Positions 42,060-43,611 of a stretch of DNA of 50,113 bases are shown here, one piece after another. Under the pieces are notes generated by a model. The model searched no databases. It saw only the letters and a program-made list of their open reading frames with translations, and had not been told where the DNA came from. Location: positions 1 to 50,113 of IMG/VR virus record IMGVR_UViG_3300024999_000018; one strand, 5' to 3'. The stretch is from a virus (lineage: Duplodnaviria; Caudoviricetes). Position numbers and translations under genes: made by a program. The stretch's first letter is position 1. Each line of letters begins with the position of its first letter.

Positions 42060-42265
42060 TGCCACTGACAAACATCAAAGGGAGAATCTTTGGCGAGTGG
42101 AAAGTTGGAGAGAGGGCTCCTTCTATAGGTGGTCACGTAAGATGGATCGCCACTTGCTCCTGCGGTAACGTGAGAGAAGTTAGAGGAGACAATCTCCTGA
42201 AAGGAAAATCAACTAAGTGCAAACCCTGCGCATTAGCGCAACTATACAAGAGGTACAAATCATGA
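42056..42265 (+). CDS. Zinc-ribbon protein resembling the N-terminal domain of phage HNH/AP2 endonucleases
   Basis: GRIFGEWKV...WIATCSCGN...LLKGKSTKC; no nuclease domain follows. Confidence 0.6.
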   Translation: MMPLTNIKGRIFGEWKVGERAPSIGGHVRWIATCSCGNVREVRGDNLLKGKSTKCKPCALAQLYKRYKS

Positions 42266-43611
42266 CCCAAGATGTTTCACAACTTCTCTACGTTCCCATC
42301 GAGGACATAGACATAGGGGATAGATTCAGGAAAGATTACGGTGACCTAGGCCAGTTGATCTACTCGATCAAGAAAAACGGCCTTATCACTCCTGTAGCCG
42401 TAGGCCTTACTGAGTCCCTCAAAATCGACTGTAAGTCCGATAAGAAGTATACCCTCCTAGCTGGTGGCCGTCGAATGGCTGCCATCCTAGACATGAAATG
42501 GTCTCATGTGCCAGCCAAGATCTATGATCAACCTCTGACCGAACTCGACTTCAGATCCATCGAACTCGCTGAAAACTTGGACCGCAAGGAGATGACCTAT
42601 GTCGAAGAAATCGCCCTCAAAAGAAAGATTAACGATCTGCAGATCAGCATACATGGAGCCAAGCATTCTAAAACACCTGATGCGGCAGGATGGTCTCAAG
42701 CAGACACCTCTAGGCTCCTTAAGGAGAGTCCTGCTAACCTTACGAGGGATCTTAAGTTGGCGCAAGCGATAGAACAGTTCCCGCAGATTGGACTGGATAA
42801 ATGTAAGTCCAAGTCTGACGCACTAAAGTTGCTCAACAGTATTGGTAAGAAACTGAACAATTCCATGCAAAGTGAGAAGTTTACTAAGGACATGGGAACT
42901 GGAGACAAGACCTTCAAGAAACTCCACGACTCCTACATTCTTCGTGACTGCTTCGAAACCTTTGCTCAGATCCCAGCTAAGTCCATAGACTTCATCGAGA
43001 TCGATCCTCCTTATGCCATGGACCTCCATTCGAAGAAGTCTGAAGGCTCCATGCTAGGTTATAATGAAATCGAGATGCTGGCCTATCCTGAGTTCATCAC
43101 CAAAGTCCTAACCGAATCCCGCCGTATCCTCCGAGATGACGGCTGGATGATCTGCTGGTTTGCTATGGACCCTTGGTTCAACTTCATCTCCACCCTCTTG
43201 AAAGAGATTGGCTTCAAACTCAACCTCCTCCCCGGCTTATGGATAAAGCCGACTGGTCAGACTATGCAACCCGAAACTCAATTCGCCAACTGTTATGAAC
43301 CCTTCTTCTACTGTAGGAAGAATGGTAGTGCTAAGTTAAATAAGATGGGTCGGTCCAATATCTTCGAGTTCAACCCGATGCCACCAGCTCAGAAGATCCA
43401 TCCCACTCAACGTCCACTCCCTCTCATGATCGAGGTCTTCAGCACCTTCTGTGCTCCGGGCAAGAGTGCATACATTCCCTTTCTAGGGTCTGGTACCAGT
43501 CTCCTAGCAGCCCATACGTGCAAGGTTGGAGCCTTTGGTAATGACCTTACTAAAGAGTTTAAAGAGGGATTTATAGTTCAACTTCAAGCCTACCTGAAGG
43601 GCTGCGTATGA
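42262..43611 (+). CDS. ParB(N-domain)-HTH-DNA methyltransferase (beta-class N6A/N4C) fusion
   Basis: SIKKNGLITPV, LLAGGRRMAA, IELAENLDRKEM; HTH WSQADTSRLLKESPANLTRDL; MTase DPPY...HPTQRP...PFLGSGT. Confidence 0.88.
   Translation: MTQDVSQLLYVPIEDIDIGDRFRKDYGDLGQLIYSIKKNGLITPVAVGLTESLKIDCKSDKKYTLLAGGRRMAAILDMKWSHVPAKIYDQPLTELDFRSIELAENLDRKEMTYVEEIALKRKINDLQISIHGAKHSKTPDAAGWSQADTSRLLKESPANLTRDLKLAQAIEQFPQIGLDKCKSKSDALKLLNSIGKKLNNSMQSEKFTKDMGTGDKTFKKLHDSYILRDCFETFAQIPAKSIDFIEIDPPYAMDLHSKKSEGSMLGYNEIEMLAYPEFITKVLTESRRILRDDGWMICWFAMDPWFNFISTLLKEIGFKLNLLPGLWIKPTGQTMQPETQFANCYEPFFYCRKNGSAKLNKMGRSNIFEFNPMPPAQKIHPTQRPLPLMIEVFSTFCAPGKSAYIPFLGSGTSLLAAHTCKVGAFGNDLTKEFKEGFIVQLQAYLKGCV

What the first reader, a model, noticed from the sequence alone, without database searches (positions are those of the whole stretch)
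42262..43611. Candidate system: ParB sliding-clamp methyltransferase loaded at dispersed parS-like sites
Seen: one polypeptide with a ParB N-domain (GGRR arginine patch, ENLDR motif), a ParB-type HTH and a beta-class MTase (DPPY, FLGSG). I found no ParA. The palindrome core TGTT(A/C)CA-WWW-TG(T/G)AACA matches the half-sites of the bacterial parS consensus TGTTNCA-CG-TGAAACA but with a 3-bp spacer. Established: ParB proteins load at parS in a CTP-dependent way and slide over kilobases; ParB-MTase fusions themselves are known in phages. Inference: sites spaced 6 kb or less apart would let the clamp sweep the whole phage genome and methylate it selectively in cis (self-marking or anti-restriction) while sparing host DNA. 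The link between protein and motif is a hypothesis.
Basis: partly seen in the sequence, partly recalled or inferred. Interest (0 to 1): 0.85.

Follow-up and report, generated by a model that had tools for sequence, protein, structure and literature searches.

The report
Phage ParB-methyltransferase with co-evolving dispersed sites
A phage enzyme that joins a ParB-type DNA-binding switch to a DNA methyltransferase appears, from co-evolution across related phages, to recognise a palindrome scattered every few kilobases along the phage genome, which could let the phage mark only its own DNA.

Summary
ORF 42262-43611 encodes a ParB N-domain (GGRR, ENLDR), a ParB/Noc-type HTH and a beta-class adenine-type MTase (DPPY, FLGSG). 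No ParA was found.

The palindrome is real and larger than reported: a 29-bp element, TTSCTA-YRTTACA-WWW-TGTAACA-TAGSAA. There are 17 copies with a maximum gap of 5,985 bp. Sixteen lie in non-coding gaps and one lies inside the 5-kb virion gene.

The window is a complete 50-kb phage genome from a large uncultured family. Every relative examined with sequence covering that position keeps the gene. Most keep the same palindrome frame with lineage-specific inner bases.

The main new result is covariation. Across 35 lineages, inner motif positions 6-9 covary best with recognition-helix residues 155-162, out of 376 protein columns. For example, G at position 6 pairs with His/Arg at residue 157 in 10/10 lineages against 2/25 otherwise. 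Seven hundred PolA columns and four other proteins do worse. Eight new lineages follow the rule.

Promoter and hairpin readings were tested and are disfavoured.

NTP-gated sliding and in-cis methylation remain untested inference.

The parts
42262..43611 (+). ParB-MTase gene (449 aa): ParB NTPase-fold N-domain, ParB/Noc-type HTH and beta-class N6/N4 DNA methyltransferase
42331..42579 (+). ParB_N domain (Pfam residues 24-106). It includes GGRR (42463-42474); ENLDR follows at 42571-42585
   Evidence: G68 G69 R70 R71 E104 N105 R108 are invariant in 35 homologues
42697..42777 (+). HTH: helix 146-153, turn, and recognition helix 157-172. Residues 155-162 covary with motif positions 6-9
   Evidence: AF2 secondary structure; Noc alignment; covariation
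42985..43566 (+). N6_N4_Mtase domain (Pfam residues 242-435). DPPY at 43003-43014 and FLGSG at 43480-43494. The predicted homodimer interface is residues 302-367
2791..2819 (.). Palindrome copy inside the 1662-aa virion-protein gene (155-5143, minus strand). It sits at the homologous alignment column in W, G001, G002 and G004
8776..8804 (.). Palindrome copy, intergenic
12859..12887 (.). Palindrome copy, intergenic, downstream of the capsid gene and a GC hairpin
18526..18554 (.). Palindrome copy between the TerL and portal genes
20125..20153 (.). Palindrome copy, intergenic
22907..22935 (.). Palindrome copy, intergenic, within the accessory block 20226-28778, most of whose ORFs have no homologue in the five compared genomes
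26602..26630 (.). Palindrome copy, intergenic, within the accessory block
29725..29753 (.). Degenerate palindrome copy between the divergent sigma-70-like promoters
29776..29804 (.). Degenerate palindrome copy between the divergent sigma-70-like promoters
30705..30733 (.). Palindrome copy, intergenic
32154..32182 (.). Palindrome copy, intergenic
34075..34103 (.). Palindrome copy. It overlaps only a doubtful TTG-start ORF
36932..36960 (.). Palindrome copy downstream of the ligase gene
41152..41180 (.). Degenerate palindrome copy upstream of the Tad2-like gene
41447..41475 (.). Palindrome copy heading the gene run that contains the ParB-MTase gene
45236..45264 (.). Palindrome copy, intergenic
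48571..48599 (.). Palindrome copy upstream of the primase gene

Best explanation
The 449-aa protein is a ParB-family DNA-binding module fused to a beta-class, DPPY-type (N6-adenine-like) DNA methyltransferase. The ParB part comprises an NTP-binding N-domain and a ParB/Noc-type HTH.

Its HTH recognition helix reads the inner half-sites (positions 6-9) of a 23-29-bp palindrome. The phage keeps about 17 copies, spread so that no stretch of the genome lies more than about 6 kb from one. This step is supported by covariation and is not shown biochemically.

The remaining steps are inferred. The protein is a dimer held together by its MTase domains. The palindromes serve as private entry or anchor sites. 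From them the enzyme, possibly as an NTP-gated ParB-like clamp, reaches and methylates the phage's own DNA. Host DNA lacks the long site and is largely spared. The site and the reading helix diversify together between related phages.
For: (1) Architecture. Pfam finds ParB_N and N6_N4_Mtase. Residues 6-219 align to Noc 7nfu (E 2.8e-10) and residues 224-419 to CcrM 6pbd (E 3.9e-13). The AF2 model has pLDDT 86.7, and its Foldseek top hits are CcrM, M.RsrI, N4CMT, M1.HpyAVI and MboIIA, then Noc. GGRR, E..EN..R, DPPY and GSG are invariant in 35 homologues.

(2) The motif is far above chance: 11 matches against 0.13 expected, and 10 matches to the 29-mer against 0 in the control.

(3) Family-wide frame. 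34 of 49 ParB-MT loci of at least 10 kb hold 2 or more similar palindromes of the frame CT-W-Y-R-K-N4-WWW-N4-M-Y-R-W-AG. None of 49 shuffled loci does. The inner bases differ by lineage.

(4) Covariation in 35 representatives below 90% identity. G at motif position 6 pairs with H/R at residue 157 in 10/10 lineages against 2/25 otherwise (Fisher 3.6e-7). This is the best of 376 columns; the next is 2.3e-4. G at position 8 pairs best with residue 162 (1e-6), then 156 and 159. T at position 7 pairs best with residue 158. C at position 9 pairs best with residue 162. The outer positions 3-5 and 10 show no enrichment in the HTH. Five of the top 30 mutual-information columns lie in 155-162.

(5) Controls. 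The best column in PolA reaches 1.8e-5 (679 columns). Primase reaches 6.4e-4, the exonuclease 5.6e-4, p145 7.5e-4, p82 2.9e-4 and p131 1e-3.

(6) Rules written down beforehand were tested on 8 new lineages from metagenomes. R1 gave 3/3 against 0/5 (p 0.018), R2 1/1 against 0/7, and R3 3/4 against 0/4. L250 is at most 46% identical to any training protein, yet has the helix SPANLSR and the core TTACA, as in the window.

(7) L013 is sister to the window lineage. It changed the helix PANL to PTNV and also changed the motif. The more distant L054 and L032 keep both.

(8) Selection at the DNA level. A copy sits at the same alignment column inside the virion-protein gene in W, G001, G002 and G004, with lineage-specific inner bases (T/D/E codons). 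The accessory block largely unmatched in the relatives carries two perfect copies.

(9) Even spread. The probability of a maximum gap this small under random placement is 0.021, 0.022, 0.0055, 0.0029, 0.051 and 0.006 in six genomes.

(10) Homodimer model. ipSAE is 0.77 against 0.01 for the best of 3 controls. The mark was reached by 20 of 30 proteins solved as pairs of one chain and by 1 of 23 solved as single chains. The runs agree in at least 85% of contacts, and the partner's pLDDT is at least 76. The interface is residues 302-367 in the MTase domain. Dimers of beta-class MTases have been solved, so this pass may reflect likeness only.

(11) The exact 23-mer occurs once each in 6 contigs among 185,579 species genomes.
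Against: There is no biochemical evidence of binding, NTP use, sliding or methylation.

The covariation rules and residue sets were chosen after looking at the data. The phylogeny-aware sign test is underpowered: of 5 independent pairs, 3-4 go the same way and 0 the other way, p 0.125. The validation set is small (8 lineages, two of them 87-89% identical to training proteins).

Some strong mutual-information signals for position 9 are plain clade markers outside the HTH, such as M253 and M373.

Sixteen of 17 copies lie in the 6.5% of the genome that is non-coding, 5-35 nt upstream of start codons. This also fits a role in gene expression.

The outer arms TTSCTA/TAGSAA are the best conserved part in the window's subgroup, and the HTH covariation does not explain them.

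L013's sites are hardly palindromic.

Fifteen of 49 long loci gave fewer than 2 copies under the strict caller. Three distant relatives showed no enriched palindrome words; two of them, Mel-JY34 and MW202489, carry a ParB-MTase at about 22% identity, and Kuura gave no ParB-MTase hit.

In the passages I read of the PNAS 2025 survey, ParB-folds fused to SAM-dependent MTases bound ATP, and no nucleotide was reported for N6_N4 fusions. CTP is therefore an assumption.

In phage 5mYOX-associated ParBs, mutating the NTP residues had no effect (abstract).
Confidence: 0.5

Rival explanations
1. Anchor without sliding. The HTH binds the palindrome, and the MTase methylates only within or next to it, for example an adenine in the conserved CTWYR/YRWAG arms. 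This would make an epigenetic mark at about 17 fixed places that times replication, packaging or expression. There is no genome-wide spreading.
For: The same covariation evidence for binding applies. The outer arms are conserved across lineages although the HTH-read inner bases change, as expected if a conserved module such as the MTase reads them. The sites lie next to gene starts.
Against: A purely local mark does not explain the even spacing, the copy kept inside a 5-kb gene, or the invariant NTP-pocket residues. No target sequence of the MTase can be deduced here.
Confidence: 0.2
2. KorB/Noc-like organiser. The ParB-HTH part binds the dispersed sites to silence or coordinate transcription, or to organise or condense phage DNA. 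Methylation would be a separate activity that is not targeted by the sites.
For: KorB (12 operators on RK2) and Noc (many NBS sites) are ParB-family proteins with dispersed palindromes; this is recalled knowledge. HerB, a plasmid ParB-like CTP-binding HTH protein, binds many chromosomal sites and reprograms transcription (abstract). Two copies lie between the divergent consensus promoters. The sites lie upstream of genes.
Against: None of the four 11-12/12 sigma-70-like promoters overlaps a palindrome. An intragenic copy is conserved. The fusion to the MTase is kept in all 120 best homologues listed (115 carry the precomputed MTase Pfam hit, the other is full length), which suggests the two activities work together.
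Confidence: 0.15
3. The palindrome is unrelated to the ParB-MTase. It would be a phage middle or late promoter, a processing or terminator hairpin, or the site of another protein, and the HTH covariation would be a by-product of shared ancestry.
For: Sixteen of 17 copies are intergenic, just upstream of the SD and start codon, and often preceded by a GC-rich hairpin. TTGCTA-N17-TAGCAA mimics the spacing of -35 and -10 elements. In W and G002 the half-site asymmetry follows gene direction. The independent-pairs test is not significant. Another core HTH protein, 28883-29485, was not tested for covariation.
Against: The -10-like hexamer lacks the T at its last position. True consensus sigma-70 promoters exist elsewhere. 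No sigma factor was found, and the PF00940 phage-RNA-polymerase search returned nothing but its control was silent, so it is uninformative. As a hairpin it fails: of 676 pair cells, 81 are non-wobble mismatches, and the S position pairs in only 4 of 15 copies. Rfam finds nothing. The asymmetry matches gene strand only 33:16 over six genomes. One copy sits inside a gene. Rank-1 columns fall in an 8-residue window for five of the 16 traits, those at inner positions 6-9, but for none of the traits at outer positions 3-5 and 10, and the controls are weaker.
Confidence: 0.12

Closest known systems
ParB-parS (chromosome and plasmid partition)
   Same: It shares the ParB N-domain with GxRR and ENxxR motifs and a ParB-type HTH. 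It has a palindromic cognate site, and this lineage's half-site TGTTACA fits the parS half TGTTNCA. Site and HTH specificity diversify together.
   Different: There is no ParA. There is no ParB C-terminal dimerisation domain; an MTase takes its place. About 17 sites are spread over the whole genome instead of clustering near an origin. The half-site spacer is 3 bp, and 6-bp outer arms are added. Relatives use inner bases that do not resemble parS.
Noc-NBS and KorB-OB (ParB-family proteins with many dispersed palindromes)
   Same: Noc is the best structural and sequence match for residues 6-219. Both systems have many dispersed cognate palindromes and work without partition.
   Different: Neither carries an enzyme domain. 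Noc's membrane helix and KorB's partner KorA were not looked for. The sites here do not overlap the consensus promoters.
ParB-CTPase-fold fusions to N6_N4 methyltransferase in phages (survey, PNAS 2025, PMC12704722; passages read)
   Same: The Pfam architecture is the same (PF02195 + PF01555). The survey reports it as frequent in phages and prophages and suggests a role 'perhaps in anti-defense'.
   Different: In the passages I read, the survey names no DNA site, no HTH specificity and no nucleotide for this fusion.
Bacillus cereus prophage ParB-MTase fusion (mentioned in PMC3592412; passages read)
   Same: It is a ParB-MTase fusion encoded by a (pro)phage.
   Different: It is described there only as having non-specific DNA-nicking activity, with no cognate site. 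Its relatedness to this protein was not tested.
ParB-like activators of phage thymine dioxygenases (PNAS 2026, PMC13229309; abstract read)
   Same: A ParB-family module helps a phage DNA-modifying enzyme act on double-stranded DNA.
   Different: There the ParB is a separate protein without an obvious DNA-binding domain, the enzyme is a dioxygenase, and the NTP residues are dispensable.
CcrM and other beta-class MTases (M.RsrI, MboIIA, M1.HpyAVI)
   Same: These are the best fold and sequence matches for residues 224-449. The motif order is DPPY before FxGxG. The predicted dimer forms through the MTase domain.
   Different: They have no ParB module. The target sequence of this enzyme is unknown.

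Membership tests
ParB/Srx NTPase fold (Pfam PF02195) | Profile match above the curated cut-off | tested here: met
   28.0 bits against a cut-off of 26.3, residues 24-106. PHROG ParB-like families reach E 1e-18.
ParB/Srx NTPase fold (Pfam PF02195) | Nucleotide-pocket motifs GxxR (Box II) and ENxxR (Box III) | tested here: met
   G68 G69 R70 R71, E104 N105 and R108 are invariant in 35 homologues. The motif names are recalled.
ParB/Srx NTPase fold (Pfam PF02195) | Binds and hydrolyses CTP, or another NTP | not testable with these tools
   There is no assay. The survey passages report ATP, CTP or GTP binding for different fusions.
Canonical ParB (partition protein) | HTH DNA-binding domain homologous to ParB/Noc | tested here: met
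   Residues 6-219 align to Noc 7nfu residues 26-230, E 2.8e-10. Noc chains appear among the Foldseek hits.
Canonical ParB (partition protein) | C-terminal ParB dimerisation domain | tested here: not met
   The C-terminal half is an N6_N4 MTase. The predicted dimer interface lies in the MTase domain, residues 302-367.
Canonical ParB (partition protein) | Partner ParA ATPase encoded nearby | tested here: not met
   PF13614 and PF01656 give 0 matches in the complete record, and the controls responded in 14 of 14 genomes.
Canonical ParB (partition protein) | Cognate palindromic site read by the HTH | tested here: inconclusive
   Covariation of helix residues 155-162 with motif positions 6-9 supports it. 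No binding assay exists, and the tree-aware test gives p 0.125.
Beta-class N6/N4 DNA methyltransferase (Pfam PF01555) | Profile match, and motif IV (DPPY) N-terminal to motif I (FxGxG) | tested here: met
   50.9 bits against a cut-off of 26.7. DPPY is at 248-251 and FLGSG at 407-411.
Beta-class N6/N4 DNA methyltransferase (Pfam PF01555) | Fold like solved beta-class enzymes | tested here: met
   Foldseek finds CcrM 6pbd at E 7e-16, then M.RsrI, N4CMT, M1.HpyAVI and MboIIA.
Beta-class N6/N4 DNA methyltransferase (Pfam PF01555) | Methyl transfer to DNA, with a defined target base and sequence | not testable with these tools
   DPPY suggests N6-adenine; this is recalled knowledge. No methylome data were available.
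KorB-type global regulator | Operators at or near promoters | tested here: inconclusive
   Two copies lie between the divergent consensus promoters, but none overlaps any of the four 11-12/12 promoter matches.
Sigma-70 promoter (as a reading of the palindrome) | -35 and -10 hexamers with A at position 2 and T at position 6 of the -10 | tested here: not met
   TAGSAA lacks the final T. No palindrome copy's outer arms were called as -35/-10; two 9/12 matches (8757-8785, 41135-41163) overlap copies at 8776 and 41152 in other registers.
Structured RNA or ssDNA hairpin (as a reading of the palindrome) | Base pairing kept by compensatory or wobble changes | tested here: not met
   The counts are 491 Watson-Crick, 28 G-T, 76 A-C and 81 other among 676 pair cells. 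The S position pairs in 4 of 15 copies. Rfam gives no match.

The most novel reading that the evidence does not exclude
The system would be a private, self-addressed DNA-modification system. An NTP-gated ParB clamp, closed at its far end by a dimeric low-specificity adenine methyltransferase, loads only at a long palindrome carried by the phage itself, about every 6 kb or less, even inside a coding region. It then slides and methylates the whole phage genome in cis, while host DNA and competing phages stay unmarked. The reading helix and the site diversify together between related phages, like incompatibility groups, which keeps each address private.
Probability: 0.3. Interest if true: 0.9.

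Novelty: new variant of a known kind. Interest (0 to 1): 0.75.

Why it matters
ParB-fold fusions to DNA methyltransferases are common in phages, but no function, DNA site or logic is attached to them in the papers I could search.

This work gives a concrete and testable pairing. There is a defined 23-29-bp site. Specific helix residues (157, 158, 159, 162) are predicted to read specific bases (positions 6-9). The family has more than a thousand homologues with natural specificity variants.

If the enzyme spreads from these sites, it would be a new way for a virus to modify only its own DNA. It would also be a natural example of a ParB clamp carrying an enzymatic cargo, and a possible tool for site-seeded, locally spreading adenine methylation.

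If it only binds, it is still a new dispersed-site ParB system in phages, alongside Noc and KorB.

Tried and rejected
Promoter reading. I first favoured a promoter or operator. TTGCTA-N17-TAGCAA mimics -35/-10 spacing. However, the -10-like hexamer lacks its last T, and a start site placed from it would fall inside several SD sequences. Perfect sigma-70 consensus promoters occur elsewhere. No Sigma70_r2 match was found. The PF00940 search found nothing, but its control was silent too, so it is uninformative.

Hairpin reading, including an N4-like template-strand hairpin promoter. A-C mismatches outnumber G-T on the coding strand (76 against 28), which looked like wobble pairing on the template strand. 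But 81 other mismatches and an uncompensated S position argue against any hairpin. Rfam finds nothing.

Directionality. It is strong in W and G002 but only 33:16 over six genomes, so I dropped it as a family-wide feature. I noted a replichore-type explanation but did not test it.

Co-occurrence. All relatives with coverage carry the gene, so this test cannot discriminate.

Distant phages. Mel-JY34, MW202489 and Kuura show no enriched palindromic words. The perfect-palindrome scan also missed the known motif in G001, G003 and G004, so that negative is weak.

Other candidate readers. No transcription-factor family was found in the small core proteins. The HTH protein at 28883-29485 was not tested for covariation because it lies outside most loci.

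Independent-pairs sign test: p 0.125-0.5, underpowered.

Expression data. No RNA holder was listed by the look-up of sequencing runs.

Supplementary files of the papers were closed and were not requested. The datasets of PMC12704722 may list nucleotide binding for N6_N4 fusions.
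Full report
WHAT THE WINDOW IS. The 50,113-bp window is a whole IMG/VR virus record with direct terminal repeats, rated complete. The exact terminal repeat is 127 bp. Genes run leftward from about 29.5 kb. These include a TerS-like HTH protein, TerL, portal, major capsid and a 1662-aa internal virion protein with a transglycosylase N-terminus. Genes run rightward from about 30 kb. These include ligase, exonuclease, a Sak4-like annealing protein, a Tad2-like protein, the ParB-MTase, an RNase T-like exonuclease, PolA and primase. 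The closest cultured relative is Desulfofustis phage LS06-2018-MD01, with 41% identity in ParB-MTase and 43.5% in PolA, in the same gene order.

THE PROTEIN. ORF 42262-43611 (449 aa) matches Pfam ParB_N (residues 24-106) and N6_N4_Mtase (residues 242-435). Against PDB sequences, residues 6-219 align to the ParB-family protein Noc across both its N-domain and its DNA-binding domain (E 2.8e-10). Residues 224-419 align to CcrM (E 3.9e-13). An AlphaFold2 model (pLDDT 86.7, pTM 0.70) has helices at 146-153 and 157-172, which form the HTH. Foldseek returns beta-class MTases first and then Noc. GGRR (68-71), E101/E104/N105/R108, DPPY (248-251) and GSG (409-411) are invariant in 35 homologues of 41-73% identity. 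No ParA-type ATPase is encoded.

The family is large. There are 1,279 proteins at E<=1e-5. The 120 best are all of similar length, and nearly all have both domains. Many sit on 40-50-kb contigs.

A homodimer prediction passed its controls. ipSAE is 0.77 against 0.01 for the best of 3 controls. The mark was reached by 20 of 30 proteins solved as pairs of one chain and by 1 of 23 solved as single chains. The runs agree in at least 85% of contacts, and the partner's pLDDT is at least 76. The symmetric interface lies at residues 302-367 in the MTase domain. Dimers of beta-class MTases have been solved, so this may reflect likeness only. It does give the topology a ParB clamp needs: a constitutive dimer at one end and NTP-pocket domains at the other.

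THE MOTIF. The looser core has 11 matches against 0.13 expected. Aligning the flanks shows a 29-bp quasi-palindrome, TTSCTA-YRTTACA-WWW-TGTAACA-TAGSAA. A lineage-tuned scan finds 17 sites with a largest gap of 5,985 bp. Sixteen lie in 15 of the 27 non-coding gaps of at least 29 nt, which together make up 6.5% of the genome. One lies inside the 5-kb virion-protein gene.

WHAT THE MOTIF IS NOT. I first thought it was a promoter or a hairpin.

As a hairpin it fails. Over 52 oriented copies in six genomes, the 676 pair cells hold 491 Watson-Crick pairs, 28 G-T, 76 A-C and 81 other mismatches. The S position of the outer arms pairs in only 4 of 15 copies. Rfam has no match.

As a sigma-70 promoter it also fails. 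The -10-like hexamer lacks its last T. The genome holds four near-perfect consensus promoters elsewhere: 29930-29958 (+) at 12/12, 34990-35017 (+) at 12/12, 29556-29528 (-) at 11/12, and 31273-31301 (+) at 11/12. None overlaps a palindrome. No sigma factor was detected.

The half-site asymmetry that follows gene direction in W and G002 is only 33:16 over six genomes. Closeness to start codons is expected for anything placed in the short spacers of a genome that is 93% coding.

THE FAMILY-WIDE PICTURE. PolA-anchored loci (27), ParB-MT-anchored loci (80 from IMG/VR and 80 from metagenomes) and TerL-anchored loci (56) were fetched. Four near-complete relatives were fetched whole.

The gene is present wherever the contig covers its position. 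This holds for 26 of 27 PolA loci, with the 27th ending too early, and for 5 of 5 long TerL-anchored records. Co-occurrence therefore cannot test the link.

The palindrome frame CT-W-Y-R-K-N4-WWW-N4-M-Y-R-W-AG recurs in 34 of 49 long loci and in 0 of 49 shuffled loci. The inner bases are lineage-specific: TTACA, TTGAT, TTAAT, TTWAA, TTCAA, TCCCA, GTGAT, GGGAT, GTAAA, ATGCA and others. The resemblance to parS is thus a feature of this lineage, and of L016/L058 with TTTCA/TGAAA. It is not a feature of the family.

THE KEY TEST: COVARIATION. For 35 representatives below 90% identity, each with at least 2 called sites, I compared every alignment column of the ParB-MTase with every motif position.

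- G at position 6 goes with His/Arg at residue 157, the first residue of the recognition helix. This holds in 10/10 lineages against 2/25 otherwise (Fisher 3.6e-7). It ranks first of 376 columns; the next column reaches 2.3e-4. One of the two exceptions, L116, has G in one of its two half-sites.
- G at position 8 ranks residues 162, 156 and 159 first, second and third (1e-6, 2e-5, 5e-4).
- T at position 7 ranks residue 158 first.
- C at position 9 ranks residue 162 first, but that trait changes only twice on the tree.
- Positions 3-5 and 10 show no HTH signal.

The G6 trait changes about 8 times on a tree built without the HTH columns. Among independent pairs, the residue changes the same way in 3-4 of 5 pairs and never the other way (p 0.125, underpowered).

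Controls on the same lineages are weaker. The best of 679 PolA columns reaches 1.8e-5. Primase reaches 6.4e-4, the exonuclease 5.6e-4, and three small core proteins 3e-4 to 1e-3.

I then wrote the rules down and tested them on metagenome loci. Eight new lineages qualified. R1 held 3/3 against 0/5 (p 0.018), R2 1/1 against 0/7, and R3 3/4 against 0/4. L250 is at most 46% identical to any training protein, yet has the window's helix (SPANLSR) and the window's core (TTACA).

In the other direction, L013 is the sister of the window lineage. It changed both the helix (PANL to PTNV) and the motif. The more distant L054 and L032 keep both.

The residue sets were chosen after seeing the data, and the validation set is small. 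I therefore put the HTH-motif link at about 0.75, not higher.

SELECTION ON THE DNA ITSELF. In W, G001, G002 and G004 a copy lies at the same alignment column of the virion-protein gene. It encodes (S/R)YV(T/D/E)K(R/I)N.., and its inner bases, and so the codons, follow each lineage's own motif. G003 has a copy nine columns away. The accessory block 20226-28778, most of whose ORFs have no homologue in the five compared genomes, carries two perfect copies.

The sites are more evenly spread than random in all six genomes. The probability of so small a maximum gap is 0.021, 0.022, 0.0055, 0.0029, 0.051 and 0.006, with maximum gaps of 6.0-8.3 kb.

The exact 23-mer occurs as single copies in only 6 contigs among 185,579 species genomes. 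A host chromosome is therefore unlikely to carry it by chance.

HOW IT MOST LIKELY WORKS. Shown by computation: the domain architecture, the reality of the motif, its family-wide frame, and covariation with the recognition helix. Inferred: the dimeric protein binds the palindromes through its two HTHs and uses them as entry or anchor points. Through an NTP-gated ParB-type mechanism it then reaches the DNA between sites and methylates adenines on the phage's own genome. The nucleotide is unknown. In the passages I read, the survey reports ATP, CTP or GTP binding for different ParB-fold fusions and names none for N6_N4 fusions.

The rivals are a local mark without spreading, a KorB/Noc-like organiser, and a motif unrelated to the protein. 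They are scored in their own sections.

COMPARISON WITH WHAT IS KNOWN. The architecture is known and common in phages (PMC12704722, passages read). A B. cereus prophage ParB-MTase was reported to nick DNA non-specifically (PMC3592412, passages). ParB-like activators of phage thymine dioxygenases exist but lack a DNA-binding domain (PMC13229309, abstract). A plasmid ParB-like CTP-binding HTH protein binds many chromosomal sites (PMC13370423, abstract).

My four literature searches found no paper that describes cognate dispersed sites for a ParB-MTase. Subscription journals and supplementary files were not searchable.

I file this as a new variant of a known kind: a ParB-family protein with dispersed sites, as in Noc and KorB, that carries a methyltransferase. 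It is not a partition system, because ParA and the ParB C-terminal domain are absent.

VERDICT. Interest 0.75.

Noticed in passing
window 41196-41441 (+): An 81-aa protein matches Pfam Tad2-like (Thoeris anti-defence 2-like domain), E 6.4e-23. It lies in the gene run just upstream of the ParB-MTase, which suggests an anti-defence neighbourhood.
   Followed up: no
window 29528-29556 (-), 29930-29958 (+), 31273-31301 (+), 34990-35017 (+): There are four near-perfect sigma-70 consensus promoters (11-12 of 12 positions). Two face away from each other at the junction of the two gene arms. The host therefore probably uses a standard sigma-70 consensus.
   Followed up: partly
window 20226-28778 (-): In this 8.5-kb block, seven of ten ORFs have no tblastn hit in any of the five compared relatives, including the 98%-similar G002; three have weak single hits. 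The 961-aa ORF 23262-26147 has no Pfam or PHROG match. It looks like an accessory insertion between the TerS-like gene and TerL.
   Followed up: no
window 12888-12911, and upstream of the copies at 2791, 34075 and 36932: Short GC-rich hairpins, such as GGAGGGG...CCCCTCC after the capsid gene, lie directly upstream of several palindrome copies. They may be terminators or RNA 3'-end structures.
   Followed up: no
window 42056-42265 (+): A 69-aa ORF overlaps the start of the ParB-MTase gene by 4 nt. It matches the PHROG family 'HNH endonuclease' over a zinc-ribbon-like part only, E 3e-12.
   Followed up: no
window 42286-42308, within the ParB-MTase gene (codons 9-16): This stretch fits the outer frame CTAYRT-N11-AYRTAG but has a non-palindromic inner part. 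It recurs in close relatives (L008, L028, L013, L052) because the peptide YVPIEDID is conserved. It is probably a chance look-alike.
   Followed up: partly
L113 (IMG/VR locus, 21.3 kb): A relative carries about 14 copies of its own variant, CCTWTGGTGAT-TWA-ATCACCAWAGG, in 21 kb. Some are tandem pairs 15-36 bp apart. This is a much higher density than in the window.
   Followed up: no
window 44425-44817 (+) and 43814-44425 (+): A DUF6378 protein (E 6e-31) and an RNase T-family exonuclease (E 4e-9) lie downstream of the ParB-MTase.
   Followed up: no
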